DNA from: Centroscyllium fabricii
Lineage: Eukaryota
NCBI GenBank assembly: GCA_051313645.2
Contig: JBNRSN020000025.1
Coordinates: 29,698,001 to 29,762,000 of the forward strand
Direction: 5' to 3'
DNA length: 64,000 nt
Within the stretch, counting starts at the first letter, position 1. The number at the start of each line of letters is the position of its first letter. Of the stretch, positions 4,632-59,546 are shown in pieces. The position numbers were made by a program, and so were the translations under genes. A model generated the notes under the pieces. The model saw only the letters and a program-made list of their open reading frames with translations, ran no database searches and was not told the DNA's origin.

Positions 4632-5464
4632 AATGTCGCTGGGCCCCCTGCTGCTCAATGGAGGAGGTCTGTTGTTGGAGGGTGATGTTGGTGTATCTCC
4701 CCATTGCGACCCTCCAATCCAATCCTTTGATATGAAAACAGAAAATGCTGGAAACACTCAGCACTTTAGGGCACTTTTTAGTCACACTTGGGACAGAAGT
4801 TGGCTGATTCAACCAACGTTCTTCTAAAAGCCGATCAGTTGCTCTATTTGTGTTTTAGGTCACTTTTTTGGTGGGGGGTGGGGGGGTGGTTGGTTTTACA
4901 TTTCTGCTGATTCCCAATTTGCCTCAGTCCCTTTTTGAGCTGGCCATGGGTTAAAGGAAGAGCTCACCCATCTCCCCGCTGGTCTGTCGTCATCAGCAGA
5001 GCCCTGGTGCGCACAAGTTCTTGCACCGTCCCTTTGCCCACTTTGGTGGCACCCAGGCAGTTGCCATGGCATTCAGCTCTTGTCCTTGGCCACTGCGGCA
5101 CGCCACTACCCAATACAGTGACATTTACCTTCACTGATCTCACCGTGCCTCACTCACTACAGCTACAGTATTAGGGAGAGGAAGTTTTATTAGACAGTGG
5201 CGGAAAGGGAGATATTATTGCCCCCTACCTGTCCCCATTCCACCCTGTAGTTACCCCCTTTGAAGATTGGGGTGCGCCTGTATTGACCATCTAGCTTGTC
5301 ATGGAACCTCCTTGCTCTGGTCTCCAGTACAGAATGTCGCTGGGCCCACTGCTGCTCAATGGAGGGGCTCTGTTGTTGGAGGGTGATGTTGGTGTATCTC
5401 CCCATTGCGACCCTCCAATCCAATCCTTTGATATGAAAACAGAAAATGCTGGAAACACTCAGCA
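4632..5464 (+). repeat. Local direct duplication of 132 bp (4632-4763 and 5333-5464)
   Basis: Near-identical aatgtcgctgggccc...gaaaatgctggaaacactcagca in both copies. Confidence 0.9.
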
Positions 5465-6595
5465 GGTCAGGCAGCATCTGCGGAGAGAGAAACAGAGTTA
5501 ACGTTTCAGGTCGATGACCCTTTGATGTTCAGCTTCGGGATTTTGTGCTACACTGAGAGAATTTGAGAGTAGAAAGAAGTGTGTCTGGTCTGAGCCCACA
5601 TTTTTAATTGGTTAGTCCCTGAAGTAGAAGCCATGGGGCAGAATATTGGATGAGTTTACTGAAAATTGCACAACCAAATTCTTTGGGAAACTATTTCAAA
5701 AGCCTACAACCCACCCCCTGGATCTGCCTGTATATATAGATTTTTTTTTTAAACATTGGTTTTTAAAAAAAAACATAAACCTCCGGCTCTTGAATCACTG
5801 CCCTTTTGATTCAAGAATCAGTGCTTTTTATCGTCTCATAACAGCTTGGTTTTGTTTGGCTATGCCAAAGGTGCTACCACATATTTATTGGACTAACATT
5901 AACCGGATTGCCACCAGAATTCATATTGGCTGCACACTCACTTCCACCTGGACCTAACCATATGCCCTCAATGGGCTACGCCTTTGTTCCTGATCCTAAA
6001 GAGTTTCTCCCACCACCCCCACTCTTTCCCCCACCCCTCCCCTGCCCCCTTCCCTTCCCTTTAACAAGAATTCCATGTCTTCACAGGCTCTTGCAATTAT
6101 GTGAAGAAACGGGAAATCTAACCAAGGAAAAGTAGCATGGGATTGTAGGAAGAGTAAGACAGGAAGAAATTGGTGGCGATCACTGTAGTCCACCACATAC
6201 ACGGAGGGAATGATATGATAGGTCTGATGGTTGTGTCTGGGGAAAGGCTGCTTGGATCCTATCATTGGATGTCGAGGCTTTTTCTCTCTCTGTTTTCCCA
6301 GAGCAGGTGAAAGAATTTGCCAATGATCAAACTGCTAGAGTGCAAGACTCAACGGACTCCAGTAATCTTGCAGGAATATCAGGAGCAGGAAGAGGCCATT
6401 CAGCCCCTCCAGCCTGTTCCACCATTTAATTAGATCACGGATGATTTGTACCTCAACTTTATTTAGCCGCCTTTGCCCAATACCCCTTGATAACCTTACC
6501 TAACAAAAGCCGATCAATCTGAATCTTGAAAGCTCCAATTGTCCCCCAACATCCACAGCCTTTTGGGGGAGGGAATTTCAGATTTTGACAACCCT

Positions 6596-12214: not shown

Positions 12215-12773
12215 TTAGATATTTTCCCCTGGAGGAAAGTTTAGAGGCTGAGACAACCGGTCCGCTGACAGTGGAAGCCATTTGCTGCTGAAACCCTCAT
12301 CCAGGCCTTTGTTACCTCCAGACTCGACTAGTCCAACGCTCGCCTGAACCTCTCCCTCCCACTTCGCACCTTCTGTAAACTTGAGTTTATCCAACACTCT
12401 GCTGCCCCTGTGCTCGCTGACCTCCATTGGCTCCCGGTCCAGCAACGCCTCGGTTTTAAAATTCCCACCCTCATGTTTTCAAATCCCTCCATGGCCTCAC
12501 CCCCCTCCCTATCTCTGTAACCTCCTTCAGCCCCACAACTCCCCGTGATCTCTGCACTCCTCGAATTCTGGCCTCTGGCGCATCCCCGACTTTCATCGCT
12601 CCACCATTGATGGCGTGCCTTCGGACGACTAGGTCCTAAGCTCTGGAATTCCCTCCCTAAATCTCTCTACCTCTCTCTCCTCCTTTAATGTGGAGGTGCC
12701 GGTGTTGGACTGGGGTGGACAAATGCAAGAAGTCACACAACACCAGATTATAGTCCAACAGTTTTATTTTAAA

Positions 12774-12811
12774 TCACAAGCTTTCGGAGCTTTTGCCCCT
12801 TCGTCAGGTGA
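12774..12811 (-). ncRNA. Minimal type I hammerhead ribozyme
   Basis: UCAC-CUGACGA-A-GGGGC-AAAA-GCUCC-GAAA-GC-UU-GUGA on the - strand. Confidence 0.8.
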
Positions 12812-13098
12812 AAGAGAGAGACTGACTTAAAGAACGCACATATGTGATGATGGGAGAAATCCGATATCTCCCACATCTCACCTCAGTAGAGATAGACACA
12901 CAAAGGCTTATTAACATATTTTAAGTGTTTCATTTAAACATAGCATCTCTAGAGAGAGATAACAATGTGGTCTCTCCAATTGTTTCACATCACACCTCAG
13001 CTGAGGGACATCAAAGCAATCAAAGGTGTTCCAACATATCAGCCAGCCTGAGATCAAAGGGTGCAGTCACAAAGGGTCTTTAAGTCAGTCTCTCTCTT

Positions 13099-13136
13099 TC
13101 ACCTGACGAAGGGGCAGAAGCTCCGAAAGCTTGTGA
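13099..13136 (+). ncRNA. Minimal type I hammerhead ribozyme
   Basis: UCAC-CUGACGA-A-GGGGC-AGAA-GCUCC-GAAA-GC-UU-GUGA: intact core, stems I and II, palindromic AAGCUU at stem III. Confidence 0.8.
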
Positions 13137-14311
13137 TTTAAAATAAAACTGTTGGACTATAATCTGGTGTTGTGTGACTTCTTGCATTTCTCCTCCTTTA
13201 AGACTCTCCTTAAAACTCGCCTCTTTGACCAAGCTTTTGGTCACCTGTCCTAATATCTCCTTATGTGGCTCAGTGTCACATTTTTGATAAAACTCCTGTG
13301 AAGCGCTTCGGGACGTTTTACTACATTAACTGCGCGATATAAAGGCAAGTTATTGTTGCTGCTGTTTGTAGAGTGGAACTAGCAGGGGTCTGAAAGCAGG
13401 ATATGTGACTAGTCTCCAGACTGTGGCTGAGAGGCGCCGGAGGAACTGGGGAAACGAGAAGAATGATTTACAGCTCACCAAAAATTCAAAAAACTCAGCG
13501 AAGCCAAATTTTATATCAAGTAGAAGCCAGCAGCAGTCAGAACTTGGCTCTCAGTCAGACAGAAAGCCTATAATACTGGGTCCTATCTCCCATTGTGCTC
13601 CCTGTTCCCTATGCTTCCTCCTTACCCCTTCCTTGGAGTTTCGTAAAGATGTGGAGATTTCAAAAAGGTTTGTATTCATAATATTTTCTTTAGCCCAAGT
13701 CATCAACGCCAGGCTCTTTGCTACACTCTGGGGTTAACTTTGGCTTTGTATTTATTAAAATATTTAAATTACCCTATGAGCGTAAAACAATCAACAAGTG
13801 AATCCAAAGTACCTCGAAATTGCCAACTCCCGTGGTTCATTTATGCCTCATTTGAATATTGGCATCTAATTAGTCAATGGGATACCCTCCTGTTCGCTCT
13901 AAGGACCTCCTATTAGACTTCACCACAGACCCTACAATAGTGTTATTATCCTCAGGAAGAAATATCCGCTTAAGCCAAAATATTTCAATGTTGCATAACG
14001 CACTCCTCGGGCGACGGTCTTAATTCATCATCACCTCAAATTGCTCCCACCAGTGACAGACCTGTAACCCACAGCAGCTCAGCCTCAGTGTTACACTGCT
14101 CAAAATGTTCTCACTTGGCACAAACCAGGTTTGAATAACAGACTCTCTAATTGTACTGCTCAGCGTTTTTCACAGTCCAAACATTTCACACACCCACTGC
14201 TCCCTGTACTGAAACCCTAGTCACAGCACTGCTAACAGACAGGCTGGTGTGCTATAGACAACTTAAAGGTAACAATAGTATGGGATTAAAAGGTGTGATT
14301 GAATATCATTG

Positions 14312-16080: not shown

Positions 16081-16187
16081 TTAGGCCCAAATTCAAAATG
16101 GTCCGTTGTTAGATTTGGGGTCACCTTGAGGCCAAGATTGATTCTTAAAATGGGGTATTTTTTTGTTTTTGTTTGTCTTTCCCGCAG

Positions 16188-17136
16188 ATCAAGCAAGTCA
16201 TGGGACTAAAGGGCCTTTTCCACAGAAATCCAAAGCAGGCTTCGCTCGACAGTCATGTTGCTGTACGGCTCACTCACAAACACTCTTTTAGCAGCCACAT
16301 CCTCCGCAGGACTGCCAGTGCCCCCACCAAAGGGCACCAGAAGAGCAAAAAGGGCTTTCCGCAAATCGTTCTAGATACCAAAGACTGCAGTTCAGAGGGA
16401 GCGAGCGAGTCTGACGACACCTCCCAACCTCGGTTTGAGCAGGAGGCCGAATGTGCTGTGGCTGCTCCGGAAGGTGCTGAACGGGCTGGCACCGACGGGG
16501 AAGTGCAGGCGGAGGCCTTTCAAGGTAAGGGGACGAGCATGGGGTCGGGGGAAGGTCAGAAGCCACGTGCGACTAATTTGCCAACGGGTGTGGTGTTTAG
16601 CGAGCCTTTAAGGCGGGCGCACCGAGTGCGCATACTGGACCCCGAGGAGCAGAGGCAAGGCGTGTTTACCAGGTGTGCCATAAATGGCTGCGGTAGGATT
16701 GGCATAGCCACCAATTGCATGAAATGCGTCATTGGTTCTAGGGAGAGCCCAGATCTAGAACGCAAGTGGAAGGAGCGTGTCCACAAGCCAGATGCCCTGG
16801 CAGCGGCCAAGCGGGCACATCAGCGCGGTTCCTCAGAGAACGAACGGTTAATTCCCGCGGGGCAGGCGGTCCAATGCCAACCCAAGCAGAGGTGGCGACG
16901 CCAGATCGTCCACGGTGTCGGCTGCAGCAGCGGAGAGGTCGACAAATTGGAGGCCGCCAGCAAGGGCTGCAACTCGCCCGAGTCTGAAAGCCTCGAGGGT
17001 CTGAGCGGTCTGGAGCACTCGTATCACTTGGCGCAGAACCCTCAGAAGTATCCGGGCACCCTTCAACGTGAAATGAACTCTTTGTTTGTACAAAAGATGC
17101 AGGAAATCCGAAGCAAGTCTCCAATCTTTTCCACGG
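16188..17136 (+). CDS. PLCH2: Phospholipase C eta 2, penultimate coding exon (long form; internal alternative donor after 16524)
   Basis: Acceptor tttcccgcag|ATC; encodes IKQVMGLKGLF...SLDSH...ILRRTASAPTK, NCMKCVIGS and PGTLQREMNSLFVQKMQEIRSKSPIFS, matching recalled mammalian PLCH2; phase-1 donor G|gtaaga at 17136/17137 fits the acceptor at 28740. Confidence 0.92.
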
Positions 17137-18494
17137 GTAAGACCTGAATGGACCGTTTTGTTGACCCATTTTTTGCTTTGTAGATCGTCCTGTTCCTCTG
17201 GCCAGCATCTCTGTGTCCAGCCGAACCTAAACCCTCTGACCAACCTAGAACACCACGCCAACTATAGATTTTGCCATCCGTTTTCCCTTGAGAAAACCTG
17301 CAGAGTGTTGAAGTGGAATGCTAAGTTGGAGCCACTTATTTTCTAGTTTCTTGTGCCCTGCCTGCCCAGCGTTTCAAAGGGTTATTTTCTTTCTTTCGTT
17401 CAACATGGTTCACGCCAACCAAATGTCTAGGATTTAGATTGCCCCAGGCTTTGGAGGATGAGATCTAAATGGTCTCCTTAAAACCATCTTGGGCGATAGC
17501 GCAAAATGGGCGACCGCATCGGCAGCCCGTTTTACACTCTGCCCGAGTCTCTCTTAGGTACCAGGATGGTCCTCCTTACCTTTGACCTCCATTGTTCCCA
17601 AAGTGATGAGGCAATGTCGTGCCCAGTAACGGATAGCCAAAAGATAGCCAGAGATAGAAAAAAGGGAACCCTGTAAGTGGGGGAAAGCACTGAACGGTAC
17701 AGACCAGCAAGGTCCTACGTTTGACCCCTGGCCTCTGCTGACATAGCTGACCTCAGTTGGCGCAAAGGGCTTGCAGATTAGCCTGGGTGCCCCTGGCTGA
17801 GGGTGGCATAATAGTGCTCGTGACGGAATGCGGCGCTGGCCTCATTATCCATCTAACCCGAACCCCATGTTCACCCCATCAACAATTCTGAAAAGGTGGG
17901 ACATGCTCGATAGAAGCAAACTGTTCCAGTAGTTGAAGGGTCAGGGACGAGGGACCATTGATACAAGATTAAATATAAGACATTCAGAACAGTGCGCAGC
18001 AGACACAGCTTTACACACAGAGAGTTCTGAGGCTGTGGAATTCATTTCCAGGGTTAATGGTTGAGACAGAAACATTCCAGATTGGATTGGATAGGCGGAT
18101 GATGGAAAAGGGGTTGAAGGGAGCAAGGTGGGTAAATGTGATTCGACTTATTTGCTCAGGTAGAGGGTAAAGGGACTGGTTGGGCCAAATGGCCTATTTC
18201 CATGATGTAAACTATTTATTTCTAGATATGAATTAGGAGCAGGAGTAGGCCATACGGCCCCTCGAGCCTGCTCCACCATTCAATAAGATTCAGGCTATAA
18301 CGAGAAAATGTGGAGATAGAGACTAAATCAGACCAGGGAGAAGAGCAATTTAGATAAATGTAGGGAAGATGGTTTTAAAAAAGTTTGTACATTTTTAAAA
18401 GTTGAGTTTCCCCACTTCCACTCGCCTTGACCTCCCTACACCACTCACCCTCTGTGGATCAAAATGTGGCGTATGCAGGAGTTAGCAATGACTT

Positions 18495-27750: not shown

Positions 27751-28740
27751 TTCAACACTGGAACAGCTTCTGATGTCAAGCTAAATTCTCAGTTTGCTCC
27801 AATAGCCCAAGTGTTTCCACTTACGAATCAAAACTGACTACTGACTGCATTGACTGGCTTATTGAGTTCCATAGACAGCTTGTGGGGAAGGACTATCCAG
27901 ATCAATGACATTTTGAAATTGAAATTGATGAAGTAATTGATTTATGAAAGATCTTTAATAGAGCCTGTGTCTTTCAGAAAAGAATACAAATTGCTTTTAT
28001 CAAAGGCACTCTGTGTCATGTTATCCACAAAAAAACAACTTTATATTTCAAGAATTATTGGGCTGGTAGAGCGCTCACTGGAGTGAATGTGCTTTGAGTA
28101 TCAGTAGTCACGGTGTGTGGGAAGGTTAGTATGTCTTGAAGGCACTGGGCAAAGTTAAAATGTCCGTTGTTCTAGTCAGTCAATGTTGTGCTGGGTTTAT
28201 GAGGCTGGCTTGGTGTTGCAGACCCTGCCTGGGATGTGGCTCAGTCACTCACAGTCAGGTTGCCAGTGGGAGAATAGCTCAAGACTGTTGCTTTCGCTCC
28301 CTCGCTCGTTACCCCTGCTGGAAGCGCACGTGCTCAGCTGTGTGGGGCAGCCACAGCGTTTGTCTCGGCCCTGATGTCCCCCCTGCCCCTCCCCCCCCCC
28401 GCGGTGGGAAGCCCATCGACACCCGCTCACCAGGCCCACTCGTGAAACAAAGCCGATTGAACAAGACGACCGCTGTCACCTATGGAGCCAATCCCTAGCG
28501 TGAGCAACAGCCTTGAGAAGAGAGGAATGATAAACGGGACAGAAAAAAGAATATTTGGGAACTTTTACGAAAACTTACGTTTTAAGTCCTAACTCTAGTG
28601 TCAGGAAAAAGCAATTTGACTTTTTGGCCTCGGCTGCCTTCCATTCATTGACCTGATCCCCACACCGTGATTATATGATGGAGTATGATGAAGCTTGAAT
28701 GATTTTTATTGATTGTTTTCATCTCCTCTTCTCCTTGCAG

Positions 28741-30581
28741 GTGACCAGCCATTCTCACATCCAGTTCCAAGCGCTCCCACGCACACTCTTGAAACCATTA
28801 CTGAAGAATCTATGCATTTCGAGGATAGAACTTGCACTGACTCCCAGTGGATGTCCTCATCTACTGTGAGTAGATCCAGAGAAGAAAGCACCAACTCCGA
28901 GGAACGTCTAGTTCCAGAAACCAGCCCGTCGCCACCACAACCCAAGAAGGTCCCGACCGATAATGACCGAGCAATAAAGGCCCCAGAGGCTTCTATTAGT
29001 GAGAAACAATTGGGAAATGGAGCTGTTCTCCTAGGTATGGATCTCCTCACAGGAGGCAACAAGCAAGAGGAGACCCTTCATGCTCATGTTTGTCTTGCAT
29101 CAAGTCTCCACAAAGACTCTCAGGGCGGTGACAGACCTTCCCATTTTTCTGATGACGGCACAAATTCGTGCACTGCCACCAATCACTCCACAACCCAACT
29201 GAGCTCTTCTCAAAACCCAAAAGATTCCTCATTGGCACCAAATGGTCAGTGCAGGGAAAAAGCTGAAGTCCTCGGTGGTCATCTGGCTCAACTTGAAGCT
29301 TTACCCACTGGAGCCTCAGCCGATAATCCTGTTCAGGAAGCACCTGGTGAAAGGTTGGACAGCACAGAGTTAGCCGAATCCCAGAAAAGCCCTACTATTG
29401 ATTCAATCGCCAGTTCTATACCACAAGGTGCTCAAAACGGATGTGACAAAAATACCCCTGGTTGTCCTATTGGGAATAATGTTCACCCTGATATGGTGCA
29501 AAGCGTTAGTTGTGATGGGCATCTTATTCAAAGTCAACATCGATTGTTGGTAACTCCTGTCCAACTATGCACATCTCCAGTGCCTGCAGTGTCATCAGAT
29601 GTGACCATAAATGATAGAATCTGGTGCAAATTGGATTCTGGGAGCCACCGGGATAGTATGTCCTCGTCATCCAGTATGTCATCAAATGACACGGTCATCG
29701 ATTTGTCGTTGCCCAATTTGGCTCGGAAGAGTTTATCCGACCTCAGCAGCAGGCAGAATGAAACCTTGGAAGGGCTTTTGATAGATAAACGGATAAGGCC
29801 TCGATCAGCTACAACTGGTCATGAAATGCTCGCTAAAGTTAGCAAAAGCAAGTCCAATCCCAATTTAAGGTCTGATGGCGACCAGCAACAAGTTGATGAC
29901 CTTCTGCCGAAGCCCTTAGCAAAGTCATCGCCAATTCCCTTCCAGTCAAACTCAAGGCGACACACCTGGAGTAGGCTGTACATGGATAGCCTCAAACAGT
30001 CTTCCCCAACTCTCAAATCAATAACGCAAAGCAAAAAGGTAGCGGACAGTCCGAGCAAATCAAAAAGCCTGGGTGACCTGACCTCCGACGATATCATGCC
30101 CAGCTTTGACAGCAAGTACAAGAGCATCAGTCGGAACTTTATCACAAGGCCCATGCGTGAGCAGCGCAGGGCGGCCGGCATGAAGAGACCCACCCAGGAC
30201 AATTTGACGGAGCAGCTGAAGAGGATCACGAGCTTCGAGCGGGAGAATGACATCACCTCCCCCACCGCCGGTCAGCCTCCGGAGACCGAGGAGACCAGCC
30301 CAGTCGTCCTTCGCAGATCTTCGTCGAGGAGCCAAAGCCGGGTGCGGTACATTGCCAACCGGGCGAAGCAGGCGCAGGAACGGCAGCGGCTGTGGAGCCT
30401 GGGGCAGAACAACCCGGCCAGCGTGCTGGAAGAGAGGGGTAACCCGGAGGGGGCGTGCTCTGTCCCCAAGAGCATTTGCACGGACATGGCCCTGCCCCTG
30501 CTCCATCGAGTCGCAGAGGAGACCAAGGTCCCACCAGCCATTGGCAGCGAGGCGGAGGTCTTCTTCATGCTAAAACTTTAA
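28741..30581 (+). CDS. PLCH2: Phospholipase C eta 2, terminal coding exon
   Basis: Acceptor ctccttgcag at 28740 (phase 1); motifs HRDSMSSSSSMSSNDTVIDLSLP, SKSKSNPNLR, SKSKSLGDLT, LTEQLK, RRSSSRSQSRVR, EERGNPEGACSV and hydrophobic C-terminus FFMLKL match PLCH2. Confidence 0.95.
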
Positions 30582-34886: not shown

Positions 34887-35604
34887 CAGGTTGAGCACCG
34901 TTAATCGGGCACGGGCGGGACCAGGCCCGTGCCGGGAAATGGAAAATACCGGGAGAACGAGTTTGGACACTGCGCATGCGCGCCAGTCAAAATGGCCGCG
35001 CGCATGCGCGCAGCATTGCGATTCGCTGGCGCGCGCGCATGCGCAAATCGGGCCCGGGTCCGCCGTCCCTCTCCATCGCCTTTGGATAAATGCAAAAAGT
35101 CACACAACACCAGGTTTAAAGTCCAACGTTTTATTTTAAATCACAAGCTTTCGGAGCTCCGAAAGCTTGTGATTTAAAATAAAACGTTGGACTTTAAACC
35201 TGGTGTTGTGTGACTTTTTGCATTTGTCCACCCCAGTCCAACACCGGCACCTCCGCATTATCGCCTTTGGGGTTGCTGCTGCCACCGAGCGGGACTCAGG
35301 CTGACAGCTGTTGCCTGGTGACTGTCCGCCTCAGTCACGGGGCTCAGCTGTCGAGAAAATAACGGGCGGCCGTATTGAATTATCTGCGCATGCGCTAACC
35401 GTCCGGTGACGCATGCGCAGATCATTCAAAACACCCGCAGCTGTTTTGAATGATCTGCGCATGCGCTCGGCGCATGCGCAGATCAATCGCTGAAGCCACG
35501 ATGGGGGCTGCCATTTTGCGCATGCGCAGTGCAGTCGGGGCAATTTGTGCCGGCAGACTGAAGCTGCCGGCTATTCGGGACACGGATTAACGGTGCTCAA
35601 CCTG
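34887..35604. mobile_element. CpG-rich Tigger-like MITE
   Basis: TA|caggttgagcaccgttaatc...gattaacggtgctcaacctg|TA. Confidence 0.9.
35086..35259. mobile_element. Palindromic Penelope-type family A insertion
   Basis: 11-bp TSD atcgcctttgg (35075-35085/35260-35270); ~140-bp palindrome centred on ggagctcc; terminal segment shared with 12689-12720. Confidence 0.85.
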
Positions 35605-38128: not shown

Positions 38129-41100
38129 TGACGTATCGTCAATAAGACTCAAAGACGAATAGTTACCTCAACTAAAGACTTTTATTAACTATAGAACAGA
38201 GCTGGTCTTTGGCTGAGCTCAGGACGGTAAATGACCGTGGTGATGGTGAGCAGCCACCTATATACTCCGACATGAGGGGAGGAGTTAGAGGTGGGGCGGT
38301 TCCTGCAGTCAGGTATGTACAGGTATATACAGATATATATATATAGCAATGCAGTAAGGTCGTTACTGGTACAGACATTATATACAAGTGGTAAATACAG
38401 GGTTACCACATTCGCCCCTTCTTTAAAAATGAGTCCGGCGGGGTGAATGTGTGTCAGCATTCTGCAATCAGTCTCTCCGCGGGGTCTGGGGCGTGTTGTC
38501 CGCCACCGGTGCTGGCGGCGTGCTGTCCATCCTGCAGTCGTCAGATGGCGATGTCAAGGGCCCAGGCGTGTGTGTGTATGCGGGCCAGTGGTCGGTGGGT
38601 GGTGGCTGGCCGAGCTGGGGCTCGGCCGGGGGTTCTGTGTTTGTGGTCCCGGCGGGCGCCAGGTCCCTGATTGAGACCGTGTCTTCCTGCCCGTCCGGGT
38701 ATGCCACATATGCATATTGTGTGTTGGCGTGGAGCAGGTGCACCCATTCCACTAGGGGGTCCGTCTTGTGGCCGCGGACATGCTTCCTAAGCAAGACTTG
38801 CCCCGGCGTGGTCAGCCACCGCGGGAGTGCTGTCCTCGAAGTCAATTTCCTAGGGAAGGAAAGCAGTTGTTCGTGAGGTGTGGCGTTAATTATGTTGCAC
38901 AGCAGAGAGCGGATGGAATGGAGTGTGTCGGGGAGGACCTCTTGCCAACGGGAGACTGGAAGGCCTCTGGACTTAAGGGCCAGGGTGACCGCCTTCCAGA
39001 TCGTCCCGTTCTCTCTTTCTACCTGGCTGTTCCCCCGGGGGTTGTAACTGGTCGTTCTGCTCGAGGCAATCCCCTTCTGGAGCAGAAACTGACGCAGTTC
39101 GTTGCTCATGAACGACGACCCCCGGTCGCTGTGGATGTAGCCGGGGAGGCCGAAGATGGCGAATAGCGTGGTGAAGTGTTTGATCACCGTTGTGCTCGTC
39201 ATATCTGGGCAGGGGAAGGCAAAGGGGAAGCGGGAGAACTCGTCGATGACCGTGAGGAAATACGAGTTGCGGTCAGTGGAGGGGAGGGGACCTTTGAAGT
39301 CCACACACAGGCGCTCGAATGGGCGGGTGGCCTTGATGAGGTGGGCCCTGTCTGGCCTGTAAAATTGGGGTTTGCACTCAGTACAGACAGGGCACTCTTT
39401 GGTCATAGCCTTGATCTCCGAGATGGAGTAGGGGAGGCTGCGAGACTTGACAAAGTGGGCGAGTCTGGTGACACCCGGGTGGCAGTCTATCGTGGAGGGC
39501 CTGCAGCCGGTCAAGCTGGGCGCTGGCGCATGTTCCCCTGGACAGGGCGTCCGGGGGCTCGTTAAGCTTACCGGGCCGATAAAAAATGTCGTACTCGTAA
39601 GTCGAGAGCTCGATCCGCCACCGAAGGATCTTGTCATTCTTAATTTTACCCCGTTGTTTATTGTTAAACATAAACGCCACCAACCGTTGGTCAGTGAGCA
39701 GGGTAAATCTCTTACCGGCCAGGTAGTGGCGCCAGTAGCGCACTGCCTCCACAATAGCCTGGGCCTCCTTTTCCACTGAGGAGTGGCGAATTTCGGGTCC
39801 CTGTAGGGTCCGGGGGAAGAAAGCGACAGGCCTGCCCGCCTGGTTGAGGGTGGCAGCTAGGGCAAAGTCCGATACGTCACTCTCAACCTGGAAGGGAATG
39901 GACTCATCAACAGCATGCATGGTAGCCTTGATGATGCCTTCCTTAATCTAGGCGAAGGCCGTTTGGGCTTCTACCGAGAGTGGGAAGACGTCGGCCTTGA
40001 GAAGAGGCCTGGCCTTATCCGCGTACTGGGGAACCCATTGTGCGTAATAGGAGAAAAACCCCAGGCATCTCTTCAAGGCTTTGAGGTTGTGAGGTAAGGG
40101 CAGCTCCTGCAGGGGGTGCATATGTTGGGGATCGTTGCCGAGGACCCCGTTTTCCACCACATAGCCGAGGATGGCGAGCTGGTCCGTACTAAAGGTACAC
40201 TTCTCTTTATTGTATGTCAGGTTCAGCCGCTGGGCCCTGTGAAGGAATTTGGCGAGATTGGCATTGTGGTCCTGCTGGTCATGGCCGCAGATGGTCACGT
40301 TGTCCAGATAGGAGGAGGTGGCCTGCAACTCGTTCTAGTCAACCATCCGGTCCATCTCCCGTTGGAAGACCGACACTCCATTGGTAACGCCGAAGGGGAC
40401 CCAGAGGAAGTGGTAGAGCCGACCGTTCGCCTCGAAGGCGGTGTATCGGCGGTCTGACGCCCGGATGGGGAGCTGGTGATACGCCAACTTAAGGTCAATA
40501 GTGGAGAAGACCTTGTATTGGGCGATCTGGTTGACCATATCTGAGATTCGGGGAAGTGGGTACGTGTCGAGCCCAGTGTAGTGGTTAATGGCCTGGCTAT
40601 AGTCTATGACCATGCGCAGTTTTTCACCTGTATTAACCACCACGACCTGGGCCCTCCAGGGGCTGGTGCTGGCCTCGATGATCCCTTCCCGTAACAGGCG
40701 CTCAACCTCCGTCCTGATAAACGCCCGGTCCCCCGCACTGTATCGCCGACTCTTGGTTGCAATGGGATTGCACTTGGGGTCGAGGTTGGCGAACAGTGAC
40801 GGGGGGTCGACCTTCAGCGTGGACAGGCTGTAGGTTGAGCGCCGTAGTAGGTCGGGATCATCCCGGCTACTGACTGTGAGGGGGGCCAGGGGCCCACCGT
40901 ATGCCATCGTTACACTCTGCAGGTGACACTGGAAATCCAGTCCCAGTAATACTGGGGCGCAGAGCTGTGGGAGAGCGTACAACTTGAAGTTGCGGTATGT
41001 GCGGTCCCTGATGGTGAGCGTAACGCTGCAGTAGCCGGTGATGTCCGCCGTGTGGGACTTGGAGGCTAGCGAGATTTGGTAACGCGTGGGCCGGGTCTGC

Positions 41101-42817
41101 AGTGCATAGCGCCGCACCGTGTCGGGGTGTATAAAGCTCTCTGTGCTGCCGGTGTTGAACAGGCAGTTAGTGGCATGCCCCTCTCCCTTGATCCCCATGA
41201 TGGAGTTGGACAAGGCGTGCGGCCTGGACTGGTCGGCCGTAGCTGAGGCCGATGTTGGGTGTGTGTAGGGGCCCTCCGATAGCTGGGGCCTCGTCTGGGG
41301 TGAGTAGCAAGATGGCCACGCTGAAGATGGCGGCGCCGGTGATTCGCACGTGTCTGGCCATTGCCACGGCAAAGATGGCGGCGCCTGTTGTGGCAAAGAT
41401 GGCGGCGCCCGTGGTTTGCACGCGGCTGGCCGCTGTTGTGTGGAAGATGGCGGCGCCAGTGGTTCGCATGCAGCTGGCTGCGACTGTGTGGAAGATGGCG
41501 GCGCCCGTGGTTCGCACGCGGCCAACCGCGACTGTACCAAAGATGGCGGCGCTGGCGAGTTGCACATGGCCGGCTGCGCCCATGCCAAAGATGGCGGCTC
41601 CTGCGCCACGTGCGCGGCCGGCCGCCGCCGTGATTTTAAAAGAGATGGCGGCGCCCGTAGTTTGCACGTGGCTGGCCGCTGCTGGGTCGTGCTGCGGCAC
41701 CGTACCTGTGGCCACGGAGTGGCATCATTGGCTTCGCTGGCCGCACTGTTGGGTCTGGAGGTCGGGCTCGACTTGCAGGCTTTGGCGAAGTGGCCCTTCT
41801 TCCCGCACTTCGCGCAGGTCGCGCTCTTCGTGGGGCACAGTGATCGCGGGTGTTTCGCCTGGCCGCAGAAGTAGCATTTGGGCCCCGCCGGCGTCTTCGC
41901 AGCTGCCGCTGCCGTCGTTGGGGCCTCGGCCCGTGTCTGCGGTGCCCAGAGGTTAGGTGGGCCTGCGTGGAAGTTGCTCTCCCCGTATGCATCCAAGCGC
42001 CGGAGTGCCCCATCCACCGCATTAGATAGCGTGATGGCGGACTCGAGCGATAGTTTTTCCTGCTCCAGTAGCCGTTGGCAGGCCTGGCTGGACCTGAGTC
42101 CTGTTACGTACGCATCGCGGACCAGGTGGTTGGCATATTCTTCTGCCGTCACTGCCTGGCAATCGCAGGCCCGTACGAGGGCTTGCAGCACTTGGAGAAA
42201 TTCTTCATTTGACTCACCCAGCCGTTGCCTTCTGGCCGACAGTAGATGCCTGGCGTAGACCGAGTTGACCGGGCGCATGAAGTTGTCCTTCAGTTTTTGG
42301 GCGGCGTCTGTATATGTTTTGGTGCCTCTAATGAATGAGTACACCCGGCCGCTGACTCTGGAGACCAGTACCTGCAGCTTGTCCTCATCACTGGTCGCTT
42401 TCACGGCCTTCATGTAGGCCTCGACACAGTGAAACCAATGTTCAAAGTCGTTTACAGCATTCGGCGCCTGGGGGTTGAGATCGAGGCGTTCCGGCTTTAC
42501 TGCGCTGCTCTCCATTTTCAAAATATAGTTAATAAAATTGACATATCGTCAATAAGACTCAAAGACGAATAGTTACCTCAACTAAAGGCTTTTATTAACT
42601 ATAGAACAGAGCTGGTCTTTGGCTGAGCTCAGGACGGTAAATGACCAGGGGATGGTGAGCAGCCACCTGTGTACTCCGACCTGAGGGGAGGAGTTAGAGG
42701 TGGAGCGGTTCCTGCAGCCAGTTATGTACAGGTATATACAGATATATATACAGCAATGCAGTAAGGTCGTTAGTGGTACAGACATTATATACAAGTGGTA
42801 AGTACAGGGATACCACA
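38129..42817 (-). mobile_element. Full-length Ty3/Gypsy LTR retrotransposon (Mag-like, two CCHC knuckles), inactivated
   Basis: LTRs 38129-38410 and 42539-42817 (TG...CA, ~5% diverged by hand count); 5-bp TSD actgt; PPT aagaaggggcgaa next to the 3' LTR; domain order gag-PR-RT-RH-IN. Confidence 0.96.
38468..42515 (-). pseudogene. Disrupted gag-pol polyprotein
   Basis: CYFCGQAKHPRSLC and CAKCGKKGHFAKAC knuckles; protease LFNTGS (D>N); RT IDLKLAYHQ and YLDN; RNase H ESDVSD; integrase VDFKG/HSDRG/VERENG; in-frame TAGs at ~40335 and ~39948 and a frameshift near 39490. Confidence 0.93.
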
Positions 42818-48025: not shown

Positions 48026-48262
48026 CTACTTCCTGCCCCTCTGGTATTCTGTAACCATTTACACCTCCCCAGGACACAGCTTCTGTTGCTGTACTCATCT
48101 CATTACCACCCCTTTTTGCCTTGTTCCACCATCCCTTTGGTCATTTATTCCCTCCTTCCCTCCTGCCCTCCACCCTATCACAGACCTCTGGTTCTTTTCC
48201 TGCTCCCTTCTTTTCCCTGCCTCTGTACTTGCTTAAAAACTGTTAAATCTCTAGCATCTTCC

Positions 48263-48299
48263 AGTTCTGATGAAAGGTCATTGACCTGAAACGTTAACT
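48263..48299 (+). ncRNA. Minimal hammerhead ribozyme (canonical core) in a Penelope-type fragment (~48030-48362)
   Basis: AGUU-CUGAUGA-A-AGGUC-AUU-GACCU-GAAA-CG-UU-AACU. Confidence 0.8.
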
Positions 48300-48364
48300 C
48301 TGTTTCTCACTCTACAGATGCTGCCGGATCTGCTGAGTATTTCCAGCGTTTTCTGTTTTTACTG

Positions 48365-49939: not shown

Positions 49940-50245
49940 AGTGGGGTGGACAAATGTAAGAAGTCACACAACACCAGGTTATCGTCCAACAGCTTTATTG
50001 GAAATCACAAGCTTTCGGAGCGCTGCTCCTTCGTCAGGTGAAGTGAAGAGATGCACATAGGCACAGCATATATCGTCAGAGAACACTGCCAGATGATTAC
50101 AGGTAATCTTTCCAACTGCCCTTTATCACACCTCGGCAGAGAGATAATCACATCAATCAAAGGTGTGAATGGTGTTCAAACAGGTCAGTCAGGAAAACAT
50201 TCCATCAAAGAACAATGAGGTGGGGTCACAAGGGGTCAAATGTTG
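49940..50245 (-). mobile_element. Penelope-type family A fragment with hammerhead at 50005-50041 (-)
   Basis: UCAC-CUGACGA-A-GGAGC-AGC-GCUCC-GAAA-GC-UU-GUGA; flanks homologous to 12713-12830. Confidence 0.8.
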
Positions 50246-50655: not shown

Positions 50656-51608
50656 GTGACACCAATAGGTAAGAGGTGAAGCGGTAGTTCATTCACCACA
50701 CTCAGGGAGCACAGCAAGCCTGGACGGGCAGTGATGGGTTGGCCCGTGGGGAGAATTCCCAATTGCTGTACCACGCAAGCTTGCACCGGTGATTTTTTCT
50801 TCATCCACATGCAAACCCGATGCCCTCCCAGATCCTGATGCTCTGTGGATCAGAGCAGTCCGTCCTTCAGAAGGGAATGTGATCAGAGGAAGGAATGGGC
50901 CAGGACGAGACATGAAGGTGCGGGTTGTGATATCCCAGCTCAGGGTTTTATGGTATGTTTCCATTCTGAGAAAGTCTGCATAAAAATCTAACGGGATCAT
51001 TATTTTTAATCCTGTGCCTTTGACCTGATGTTTTTGTTTGCAGGAATTGGCAAATTGTGAACCGGGTTTTTGTCCATTGTACACTCTGTCTACACGAACA
51101 AGCATCAGGGCATGTTTCCATACAATCAAACAGCGGGAGGCCATCACCACTTTGGGATATTTACAAGTAAGAGTTTATTTTATAGCAGGGGCAAGAGAGT
51201 CCTGTTCCTTCTAATTGGGGTGAACTGTGCGGACCATTCGACACTGGGGCCCTCGATGGAAGGATTAAGCCCGCACTGCAGAAACACGCCCAATACATTC
51301 CAGAGTGCTGGCGGGTCACCTCCGTGTTGAACAAGCCTCGGTACAAGTGCAGAATCAGCTCTGTGTGTGTAATTGTCACAGCTTGCCTTGATGGTCTTTG
51401 TGAGTTCATTAAGGACTCTTCAATAGAGAAGGCACAGTGGGAATGCACCAAAATAAGCCTTTATTCAGAACGTTTGAGTGCTCCGAATAACCACGTGTTC
51501 TGATCCAAAGGAATCTTGTTGTAACGTTCCCAGATAGGTGAAGAGGGGGTGGATGAGGAACCTTTCCCATACTGTGTACTGTTTGGTCCCAGTGTTTTCT
51601 TGGCAATC

Positions 51609-52015
51609 GATAGCAAAATACTGCAGATGCTGGAAATCCGAAATAACAACAGAAAATGCTGGAAAAACTCGGCAGGCCAGGCAACATCCGTGGAGAGAAA
51701 TATAGGGTCGACATTTCGGGTTCGGACCCTTTGTCAAGACTAAAGCCAGGAAATGAAAGAGGTAGGAAGGCCGGGAGCTGGGAGGGAACAGAAAACAAAG
51801 AGAAGAGAGAACAAAGAGAAAAGACGTTAAGAGGTATTCAATGCTGATGGGGCTGTGGACAGGAGACAGCTGTAGATTAGGTGTGAAAAGCCTTCCTACC
51901 TGTTTCATTTCCTGGCTTTAGTCTTGACAAAGGGTCTGAACCCGAAACGTCAACTCTTTTTTCTCTCCATGGATGTTGCCTGGCCTGCTGAGTTTTTCCA
52001 GCATTTTCCGTTGTT
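51609..52015. mobile_element. Non-coding Penelope-type retroelement (family B) with inverted arms carrying variant hammerheads (51706-51741 -, 51920-51955 +)
   Basis: TSD ttttcttggcaatc/ttttcttggaaatc; ~125-bp inverted arms; core UUGACAA...GAAA. Confidence 0.78.
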
Positions 52016-52102
52016 TTTTCTTGGAAATCTCTCAGCCACAGCACTGAGGTGGGGCGGTGCTGTCCAAGTTAAGGACATCAACGGAACGTATTAGTTTATT
52101 AA

Positions 52103-53172
52103 TCATAGAATCATAGAAGATAGGAGCAGGAGTAGGCCATTCAGCCCTTCGAGCCTGCTCCGCCATTCAATGAGATCATGGCTGATCTTTAGCAAGCTAG
52201 TACCCCGTCCCCGCCTTTTCTCCGTAACCTTTAATCCCTTTAGCTTGAAGAAATATATCCAATTCCCTCTTAAATATGTTTAATGAACTGGCCTCCACCG
52301 CCCTCTGTGGCATGGAATTCCACAGGCCCACCACTCTCTGAGTGAAGAAATTCTTCCTCATGTCTGTCCTAAATGGTTTACCCCTTATTCTTAGACCGTG
52401 GCCCCTGGTTCTGGACTCCCCCGCCATTGGAAACATTCTCTCTGAATCTAACCTGTCCAGACCTTTCAGAATTTTATACGTCTCAATGAGATCACCTCTC
52501 AATCTTCTAAACTCCAACGAGTACAAGCCCAGACTACATAATCTCTCCTCGTAGGTCATTCCAGGAATCAGCCTGGTGAAACGCCGCTGCACTCCCTCCA
52601 TGGCAAGAACATCCTTTCTCAGGCGAGGCGACCAGAACTGTACACAATACTCGAGGTGTGGTCTCACCAGTGCCTTGTACAGCTGTAGTAAGGTATCCTT
52701 ATTCCTATACTCAAACCCTCTTGATATGAAGGCCAACACACCATTTGCCTTCCTAACCGCCTGCTGCACCTGCATGCTCGCCTTCAGCGACTGGTGCACA
52801 AGAACACCCAGGTCTCTTTGCACCTCCCCATCTCCCAATCTATTGCCATTTAAGTAATAATCTACCCTCCTGTTTTTGCCCCCAAAGTGGATAACCTCAC
52901 ATTTATCCACATTATAGTGCATCTGCCATCTATCTGCCCAGTCCCCCAACTTATCCAAATCGCCCTGTAACTTCCTGACACCCTCTTCAGAGCCTGCCCC
53001 CCCTCCTAGTTTGGTGTCATCTGCGAATTTGGAGATATTACATTCAATTCCCTGATCCAGATCATTAATATATATTGTAAACAGCTGGGGTCCCAGGACA
53101 GACCCCTGCGGTACCCCACTAGTCACCGGCTGCCACTCAGAAAACAAGCCGTTAATTCCAACTCTCTGTTTT
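52103..53172 (-). mobile_element. Young 5'-truncated CR1 LINE with open RT C-terminal half
   Basis: ORF 52197-53282 contains GVPQGSVLGP, KFADDTKL and RPHLEYCVQFW with no stop before the natural end; intact 3' tail. Confidence 0.96.
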
Positions 53173-54057
53173 AATGAGTCAGGACACTGAACACGTTCAC
53201 CAAAACAACAACTGGCATTTATATGAACGCCTATAACATAGAAAAATGTCCCAAGGTGCTTCACGGAAGCGTGAACAGACAAAAAAAAAATGGACGCAGA
53301 GATATTAGGAGGGGTTGGCCCTGAGCTTGGGCTTAAAGGTGAAGAGGGAGGTGGAGAGGTTCAGGAAGGGAATTCCACAGTGCGGCTGAAGGGAGTGGAG
53401 GGGACACACATCTAGAAAACAGCTGGATTCTGCAATGGGCAGACAATAGGGTGGCTATTCTGGGAGGAAGAGATGAGATGGGCCGAAGGATCTCCTACAT
53501 GCAAAACCAACTTGTGATCCTCTCAGCAGTAAACGCAGTGAGCGAAAACATTGTTCTGAGTTTTAGTTTGTCGCTAAATCTGAAACCTTTACGTCCGATA
53601 GGGAATTTCTGGAATCACAAAACACCGTTTCGATTGATCTCAGCCCCACTTTCCTATTTCCACTGCCCACACCCCCCAGTCTCCCCTCCCTCTCTCGCTC
53701 CAGTTTGCCTCAATGGCTTCCTCCAGTAAATAGTTTGAAGTTGTATCTGGACCAGCTGAGGCTGCATCTCTGGCACTGGGTCTAGTTTTGGTTTCCGTAT
53801 TACAGACAGGATCTTCAGAGGGTTGGGTTATGAGGACAGATCCATCAGCCAGTGACCACAATCTCCTGAAAAAGAGGATGAGGGGGATAATAATAGAGGT
53901 CTTTAAGACTTTCAATGGGTCTAGAGAATTTGGATCCCTGGATGTGAGGACCAGTGGCAGAGTTTAAAGTTACAGAGGTCAAGAGAAATGTAGCAACAGG
54001 TTTTTTGTAAGAGGGTGGTGGAAAAGAAAACCATGGCAAAACGACTGGCTGAATTCC

Positions 54058-58855: not shown

Positions 58856-59037
58856 AATATCTGTTCCCAGATATGGGAAGCAAATCTGCTGTAAGACGAC
58901 GAGGTCATTATGGAACCGATGAGAATTCCTCATCAAGGAACTGTCAGTAAGCTGATGGGGTGACAGAGAACACACAAGCACAAGACATGGGAAAATGAAA
59001 GGGGAAAGATGATGAAACCAACATAGATAGGAATGGA

Positions 59038-59175
59038 AAACAACAACAGAAAATGCTGGAATAACTCAGCAGTTCAGGCAGCATCGGTGGAGAGAGAAAC
59101 ACAGAGTCAACGTTTCGGGGAGTTCCCTTTGTCGAGACGTTTGGATTTCCAGCATCTGCAGTATTTTGTTATCGT
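59038..59175. mobile_element. Short Penelope-type family B insertion with variant hammerhead (59106-59138, -)
   Basis: 15-bp TSD atagataggaatgga/atagataggagtgga; one end is the reverse complement of 51609-51640. Confidence 0.75.
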
Positions 59176-59546
59176 ATAGATAGGAGTGGACCAGATAAAG
59201 ACTCAAACATCTTGGAGCAGCAGAAGAAGAAAAGGGTGGTGAAAGAAATCTGATAGTTAGCGTGCCTTTAAAGGAACATTCCTTCTACAAGTTAGTAGAA
59301 TTGGCGCTCACTGCTACAACATACGCCTGGGGGAAAACACATCCTGATTATATTCAGGTTTAATCAAACACTTTAAATTGAGGTTCCCTGGCCACGCCAC
59401 CCTAGAAGGCCCAGGTTTGATCCCTTGTCTCTGCTGAATTAGCTGGTTTCAGTCAGCACAGCAGTGGGGTGGCTCCAGTTGACCTCAGTACCTACCCATT
59501 CAGTGATCACTGCTCTGAGGTACGAGTGAGCTCCCTGCATATATCC

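What the first reader, a model, noticed from the sequence alone, without database searches (positions are those of the whole stretch)
51609..52015. Retroelement family whose hammerhead carries a compensatory U3-A8 core
Seen: both arms read GUC-UUGACAA-A-GGGU-(4 nt)-ACCC-GAAA-(C/U)G-UC, so CUGACGA is changed at exactly C3>U and G8>A; the copy at 59106-59138 also has U3/A8 with a different stem II. Established: C3-G8 is a tertiary Watson-Crick pair needed for catalysis, and U3-A8 double changes can rescue activity. Inference: the double change, shared by independent TSD-flanked insertions, points to selection for self-cleavage in a small non-coding mobile RNA family that standard CUGANGA searches would miss. 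This is the best candidate for an undescribed system in the window.
Basis: partly seen in the sequence, partly recalled or inferred. Interest (0 to 1): 0.82.

Follow-up and report, generated by a model that had tools for sequence, protein, structure and literature searches.

The report
Penelope retrotransposon end with U3-A8 hammerhead
This is a truncated copy of a common protein-coding jumping gene (a Penelope-like element) whose end carries a hammerhead-ribozyme motif with a known U-A swap in its core; the swap arose at least twice in this genome, which likely reflects selection to keep the RNA able to cut itself.

Summary
The motif is real: both arms read U3-UGAC-A8. It is not a small stand-alone RNA family. 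Longer genomic copies run upstream into an RT + Zn-linker + GIY-YIG ORF, with pseudo-LTRs, an inverted 5'-truncated copy and an optional ~34-nt tail: an autonomous Neptune-type Penelope-like element (PLE). U3-A8 cores are published for PLE hammerheads in Schistosoma (PMC4209133) and other natural hammerheads (PMC3088659). New here is the record of how the pair changed. Exact genome-wide counts: C3G8 39,133; U3A8 17,755; C3A8 4,536; U3G8 3,165. C3A8 is mostly CpG decay of dead copies. U3-A8 arose in at least two lineages (one U3 clade rejected), once in a non-CpG context (A7). U3-G8 subfamilies also amplified; no amplified C3-A8 subfamily was seen. The 59.1-kb copy shares the focal lineage's origin, so it is not independent evidence, and it also has U4C. 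The focal copy has decayed helices and a long inverted repeat, so it is probably inactive. Cleavage was not tested. Verdict: new member of a known kind; modest interest.

The parts
51592..51608 (+). left target-site duplication
   Evidence: 15 of 17 identical to 52013-52029
51609..51891 (-). main copy: 3'-most 283 nt of the PLE pseudo-LTR/3'UTR, 5'-truncated, with the ~34-nt tail at about 51609-51642
   Evidence: 93-95% identical to the pLTRs of ORF-bearing copies; two classes of 3' end
51706..51741 (-). minimal type-I hammerhead motif, U3 (51737)-A8 (51732); C15.2>U and one stem I mismatch; predicted cut 51710/51709
51890..52020 (+). inverted, 5'-truncated second copy of the pLTR, without tail
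51920..51955 (+). minimal type-I hammerhead motif, U3 (51924)-A8 (51929); C2.1-A1.1 mismatch; predicted cut after 51951
52013..52029 (+). right target-site duplication (overlaps the arm end)
59023..59190 (.). sister-subfamily insertion: pLTR piece 59038-59138 (-) with a U3-C4...A8 core, tail piece 59140-59175 (+), 15-bp duplication at both ends
48200..48361 (+). copy of another subfamily of the same PLE family with a canonical C3-G8 core (motif at 48262-48300); left limit not mapped

Best explanation
The locus is a truncated, probably dead, inverted-pair insertion of an autonomous Penelope-like retrotransposon (likely Neptune clade) whose pseudo-LTR carries a minimal hammerhead motif, and the U3-A8 core is likely a compensatory swap kept by selection on the master elements for RNA self-cleavage. 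Shown: element identity and architecture, the covariation, at least two origins of U3-A8, and amplified U3-G8 subfamilies. Inferred from published PLE work: the element's RT/GIY-YIG protein nicked both target strands and copied pLTR RNA from two start sites about 34 nt apart, giving two 3'-outward arms, one with the tail and one without. In full pLTR-ORF-pLTR transcripts two hammerheads would form helix III through the ACGU palindrome, perhaps helped by the element's protein, and cut after C17. Selection would act only on such masters; inserted copies decay neutrally. Any transcript of the focal copy is predicted to fold into a ~130-bp hairpin that buries its damaged motif.
For: 46 oriented copies show a ladder of 5' truncation, up to 855 nt upstream, running into a GIY-YIG C-terminus. 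L115 has a 570-aa frame with RT motifs, a C-x4-C-x2-C linker and GIY-YIG (Pfam RVT_1 E 2.5e-4, GIY-YIG E 5.3e-4). L182 is pLTR-ORF-pLTR in direct orientation, motifs 3,137 nt apart; L181 and L183 have an inverted 5' copy. 3' ends: 65 of 130 at unit 243-263, 40 at 278-283, 0 between, 25 shorter, matching the PLE tail (PMC8557442, PMC11167929). Counts C3G8 39,133, U3A8 17,755, C3A8 4,536, U3G8 3,165. On C3, A8 frequency is about 25% after C7 but 2.9% after U7 and 1.8% after A7. One U3 clade rejected: p-AU 1e-40 (ORF+UTR, 46 rows, core masked) and 0.0013 (ORF only, 36 of 46 rows). A7 lineage, first 100 of 6,476 matches: C3G8 62, U3A8 28, U3G8 9, C3A8 1; 3 and 8 are 2 of only 8 diagnostic columns among 192 (chance about 0.0015). 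C4 class, first 100 of 5,194: 31 C3G8, 66 U3A8, 3 other, no C3A8 or U3G8. Stems I and II also change on both sides.
Against: No cleavage was measured. Both Pfam hits lie below the curated cut-offs (21.2 vs 29.6 bits; 20.7 vs 22.6). The genome-wide odds ratio alone proves little: any two subfamily markers are linked by descent, so the case rests on about two events. U3-G8 masters amplified (about 3,000 copies), and in the focal lineage they are nested inside U3-A8, so they look like reversion or chimaerism (a basal position is rejected, p-AU 0.008): a Watson-Crick pair is not strictly required. U4C masters also amplified, and U4C lowers activity in vitro (PMC3088659). In Anolis PAc, hammerhead mutants still insert in vitro and no RNA ends at the cut site were found (PMC11167929). 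In the focal lineage a CpG origin of G8>A cannot be excluded, since close C3 relatives carry C7G8 (L008).
Confidence: 0.8

Rival explanations
1. Same PLE, but the hammerhead is vestigial: U3 and A8 are neutral master-lineage substitutions linked by clonal descent.
For: U3-G8 and U4C subfamilies amplified to thousands of copies. Cleavage is dispensable for insertion in vitro in PAc (PMC11167929). Minimal PLE hammerheads cleave poorly in vitro (PMC4209133). Both changes are transitions.
Against: The same two changes recur in two lineages, once without CpG. Mismatched masters seen are U-G, not C-A (9 vs 1, p 0.02). Stem pairs change in a compensated way.
Confidence: 0.13
2. The pairing is selected, but for a folded RNA structure (protein-binding or RT-start signal) rather than for cutting.
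For: In PAc the uncut RNA is the main substrate and RT starts downstream of the hammerhead (PMC11167929); here the 3' ends lie about 90-130 nt downstream of the core.
Against: The 3-8 pair is a feature of the catalytic conformation (PMC3884650, passages); no other role for it is known to me (recalled).
Confidence: 0.05
3. One reading: a separate small non-coding family (retrozyme-like) that cleaves, circularises and borrows a PLE protein.
For: Many copies are short and lack ORF sequence: 78 of 161 motifs had ORF within 900 nt upstream, the rest did not. Animal retrozymes derive from pLTRs (bioRxiv 10.64898/2026.07.22.740005).
Against: No fixed 5' end: truncation is continuous into the ORF. No tandem array at this locus. 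Every subfamily examined has ORF-linked copies. The arms are inverted, not head-to-tail.
Confidence: 0.02

Closest known systems
Minimal type-I hammerheads in PLE pseudo-LTRs, including the U3-A8 variant of Schistosoma mansoni Cercyon PLEs (Cervera & de la Pena 2014, PMC4209133; main text parts 1-3 of 4 read, one of two supplementary files searched)
   Same: No helix III loop, palindromic 15.2-16.2, extra base after A9, short helix I, location in pLTRs, mostly single truncated copies, inverted pairs on opposite strands, U3-A8 core
   Different: A 7.2-Gb vertebrate-type genome, at least 17,755 exact U3-A8 copies against about 1,300; helix II is 3-5 bp, not 7-8; two origins, U3-G8 and U4C subfamilies resolved, which the text read does not describe
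Neptune-clade EN+ Penelope-like elements (PMC8557442, passages)
   Same: RT then C-terminal GIY-YIG with a CX2-5CxxC linker; pLTRs, inverted 5'-truncated copy, 30-40-bp tail
   Different: Clade assigned from the linker motif only, which Nematis shares; no RT tree against reference elements was possible
Anolis PAc Poseidon element and its protein-assisted hammerhead (PMC11167929, passages and second half of main text)
   Same: Two 3' ends bracketing a tail, hammerhead in the pLTR
   Different: PAc keeps C3-G8, is Poseidon clade, and its ORF starts inside stem II; here the long reading frame appears to start after the tail
Natural U3-A8 hammerheads (Perreault et al. 2011, PMC3088659, section 8 and passages)
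   Same: Same covariation; U4C is also noted there as a natural low-activity variant
   Different: Those are scattered examples, not a high-copy lineage series
Non-LTR retrozymes (PMC7229834, listing only; bioRxiv 2026.07.22.740005, part 1 and passages)
   Same: Type-I hammerhead related to pLTRs
   Different: Retrozymes are head-to-tail non-coding repeats; this is an inverted truncation of a coding element

Membership tests
EN+ Penelope-like element | single ORF with RT followed by GIY-YIG endonuclease | tested here: met
   L115 570-aa frame with RT and GIY-YIG motifs; Pfam E 2.5e-4 and 5.3e-4, both under the cut-off; its 3' part is contiguous with the focal UTR
EN+ Penelope-like element | pseudo-LTRs, direct and/or inverted 5'-truncated | tested here: met
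   L182 direct; L181, L183 and the window inverted
EN+ Penelope-like element | optional 30-40-bp tail | tested here: met
   65 vs 40 of 130 ends, none between
Neptune clade | CX2-5CxxC linker between RT and EN | tested here: met
   C-x4-C-x2-C in L038, L115, L122; shared with Nematis
Neptune clade | RT groups with reference Neptune elements | not testable with these tools
   no reference PLE set was on hand
Minimal type-I hammerhead (PLE type) | core, stems I and II, extra base after A9, palindrome for dimeric helix III | tested here: met
   93.9% of cells paired, two-sided changes in 4 of 10 pairs among 31 distinct rows that I chose by class; ACGU in 112 of 137 non-B motifs and 23 of 24 B motifs, partly set by my regex; damaged in the focal arms
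Minimal type-I hammerhead (PLE type) | self-cleavage after H17 | not testable with these tools
   needs an assay
Rfam hammerhead families | match to a covariance model | tested here: not met
   no hammerhead hit at E<=1 in the window, C3-G8 copies included
Non-LTR retrozyme | head-to-tail tandem non-coding units, each with a hammerhead | tested here: not met
   inverted arms, no tandem array here; continuous with an ORF
Non-LTR retrozyme | circular RNA | not testable with these tools
   only contigs were available, no confirmed RNA run

The most novel reading that the evidence does not exclude
Tens of thousands of dated PLE copies preserve a fossil record of a ribozyme's catalytic tertiary pair being rewired repeatedly: C3-G8 to U3-A8 twice, once stepwise through an amplified U3-G8 wobble, with reversion to U-G and U4C tolerated but C-A not amplified. 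This would be in-vivo evolutionary evidence that hammerhead cleavage matters for PLE propagation, which in-vitro work leaves open.
Probability: 0.55. Interest if true: 0.5.

Novelty: new member of a known kind. Interest (0 to 1): 0.33.

Why it matters
The system is known, so this is not a new class of mobile RNA. Its value is as a natural experiment. Whether PLEs need their hammerhead is open: the one reconstituted element inserts without cleavage in vitro (PMC11167929). Repeated compensatory change at the 3-8 pair within one PLE family suggests masters were selected for the active fold, and supplies natural C3-G8, U3-G8, U3-A8 and U4C variants in matched backgrounds for assays. Practically, about a third of the motifs counted (20,920 of 64,589 have U3) would be missed by a search that demands C3.

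Tried and rejected
Rfam scan: no hammerhead hit. Monomer folding of four window motifs: not better than shuffles (z -0.2 to -1.0), uninformative for a dimer-type motif. PDB sequence search of the ORF: nothing useful. Pfam on the short L038 frame: GIY-YIG only at E 0.24; the N-terminal L115 frame had no family. Fixed-position sample (664 kb): 25 family hits, too few for a 3/8 table, so exact-pattern counts were used. U3-G8 as the intermediate in the focal lineage: rejected. Whether the two arms come from different RNA molecules: in 19 inverted pairs the arms were 86-98% alike, mostly no closer than to other copies, which cannot be told from age. Sequencing runs: no RNA holder listed; contigs of four runs (coded organisms C and D and one unlabelled) cover the core with no difference listed at 3 or 8, 7 rows not shown: at most a hint that U3-A8 is shared with relatives. 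Earlier scan findings: none. Not held: Lunse et al. 2017 (PMC5785218), Przybilski & Hammann 2007 (PMC1986816), Nelson & Uhlenbeck 2008 (PMC2271363); so I have no measured rate for U3-G8 or C3-A8, and the Lunse paper may already list these variants. Searches for prior description of this family or of the path: searches found none beyond those cited; Repbase and Dfam could not be checked and very likely hold the family. One supplementary file of PMC4209133 and the bioRxiv supplements were not seen.

Full report
Observation. Each arm reads stem I AGUC, core UUGACAA, an extra A, a 4-bp stem II and GAAA-(C/U)GUC; the + arm would be cut after 51951 and the - arm between 51710 and 51709. The arms are a 90-93% inverted repeat and both insertions are flanked by direct repeats. 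Two things were missed. The focal arms are decayed: the left has lost the ACGU palindrome, the right has a C-A mismatch beside the cut. The 59.1-kb copy also carries U4>C, as do 24 of 24 tabulated copies of its subfamily.

What the element is. The window lies in a 7.2-Gb genome; its repeats look elasmobranch to me, which is recalled and comes from no call. A query made only of the 140 nt upstream of the motif fetched 29 other loci; 27 of the 28 with a readable core are U3/A8 and one is C3/A8. These copies do not share a 5' end. Among 46 oriented copies from L002-L060, shared sequence runs upstream as a ladder up to 855 nt and enters a frame ending in a GIY-YIG domain. Searching with that ORF piece gave 11,128 first-look candidates. 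L115 holds a 570-aa frame with RT motifs, a C-x4-C-x2-C linker and GIY-YIG (Pfam RVT_1 E 2.5e-4, GIY-YIG E 5.3e-4, both below the curated cut-offs). Of the 29 ORF-selected loci, 20 had a core readable in the table: 18 U3-A8 and 2 U3-G8. L182 is pLTR-ORF-pLTR with two direct motifs 3,137 nt apart; L181 and L183 have an inverted copy at the 5' end. Of 130 aligned pieces, 65 end at unit position 243-263 and 40 at 278-283, none between, 25 shorter. Inverted 5'-truncated copies and a 30-40-bp tail are the published PLE signature, and the Cys linker marks Neptune or Nematis (PMC8557442, passages). The focal locus is therefore an extreme truncation: a tailed 3' end on one strand joined to an untailed one on the other.

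Do 3 and 8 covary? Exact counts with one 19-place pattern gave C3G8 39,133, C3A8 4,536, U3G8 3,165 and U3A8 17,755, with backwards controls of 3, 0, 10 and 6: odds ratio 48, 88% Watson-Crick. These are lower bounds and leave out the C4 subfamilies. From my by-eye counts of the first 100 listed matches (all on contig C1), A8 on a C3 background is about 25% after C7, 2.9% after U7 and 1.8% after A7. So C3-A8 copies are mainly CpG decay after insertion. In the C4 class (5,194 matches) the first 100 were 31 C3G8, 66 U3A8 and 3 other.

Is that selection? Linkage among copies is expected from descent, so only independent events count. I built a tree of 46 rows from ORF end plus UTR with the core and the 7 bases before it masked; rows were those of 161 motifs with enough ORF, the focal subfamily thinned to 14 chosen rows, plus three UTR-only rows. 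The focal and 59.1-kb subfamilies fall in one all-U3 clade (98/92): they are one event. A second U3-A8 group sits among C3-G8 copies that have A7 and a 5-bp stem II (100/99). One U3 clade is rejected (p-AU 1e-40; ORF only, 36 of 46 rows, p-AU 0.0013). Conversion from the focal lineage is unlikely because the A7 between the two sites is kept. In this A7 lineage the first 100 of 6,476 matches were C3G8 62, U3A8 28, U3G8 9, C3A8 1. Positions 3 and 8 are 2 of 8 diagnostic columns among 192 between six C3-G8 and six U3-A8 copies (chance about 0.0015); two U3-G8 copies keep the ancestral state at the clean markers and seven share the derived ones. That fits C-G, then U-G, then U-A, though the tree is unresolved there and reversion is possible. 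Stems I and II also show two-sided changes (rows chosen by class, so the 3-8 counts there are not a test).

Results against. In the focal lineage a U3-G8 subfamily is nested inside U3-A8 and cannot be moved basal (p-AU 0.008), so a wobble-pair master amplified after the swap. U4C masters amplified too. G8>A in the focal lineage may have arisen at a CpG, as relatives carry C7G8. In PAc, hammerhead mutants still insert in vitro and cleavage needs the protein (PMC11167929). No cleavage or expression data were obtained here.

Mechanism. Inferred from PLE literature: the protein nicks both strands and primes reverse transcription from two sites, giving outward-facing 3' ends with or without tail. 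In pLTR-ORF-pLTR RNA two minimal hammerheads would pair through ACGU and cut after position 17 (dimer model, PMC4209133). Selection would act on such masters. The focal copy has one motif per strand, each damaged, and either strand is predicted to fold into a long hairpin (-246 and -231 kcal/mol), so it is probably inert.

Comparison and novelty. U3-A8 in PLE pLTR hammerheads was reported with about 1,300 hits in S. mansoni, along with inverted pairs and truncated single copies (PMC4209133); natural U3-A8 and U4C cores are in PMC3088659. Eight literature searches found no account of this family's variants or of the repeated path, but three key papers were not held and Repbase/Dfam could not be checked. 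Verdict: a new member of a known kind, with a useful evolutionary record. Interest 0.33.

Noticed in passing
window 12720-12830 (-), 13085-13190 (+), 49950-50045 (-), 35081-35232: A second, different repeat family with canonical C3-G8 minimal hammerhead motifs and an AAGCUU palindrome; an inverted pair at 12.8/13.1 kb and a near-perfect inverted repeat at 35.1 kb whose cores are lost at the centre (the Rfam miRNA hits there are spurious). Probably another PLE family.
   Followed up: partly
window 59038-59175; L061-L090; U4>C is carried by amplified subfamilies on both C3-G8 and U3-A8 backgrounds (5,194 exact matches); it creates a CpG, so decay hides part of it as U4.
   Followed up: partly
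window 59038-59175: Here the tail piece is inverted against the rest of the pLTR with no overlap (also L062-L065, L075), unlike the overlapping arms of the focal copy.
   Followed up: no
G000:C1:4995698/4996024; L229; L225: Some close inverted pairs carry different core or subfamily states in the two arms (U3A8 beside C3G8; U3A8 beside U3G8), which would fit two RNA templates in one insertion.
   Followed up: partly
L123, L127, L234-L236: A subfamily keeps a U2.1-G1.1 wobble in stem I between the U-A and C-G states.
   Followed up: partly
window 38468-42548 (-): LTR-type retroelement frames: zinc knuckle, protease, RT, integrase (Pfam).
   Followed up: partly
window 52197-53360 (-): RT-bearing frame of another retroelement just right of the focal insertion (RVT_1 E 1e-12).
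   Followed up: no
window 4729-4763 and 5430-5524: Two decayed pieces of the same PLE family behind an identical ~30-nt flank, suggesting a local duplication.
   Followed up: no
window 16149-17147 (+), 28713-30581 (+): Stop-free frames of 332 and 622 aa with no Pfam family.
   Followed up: no
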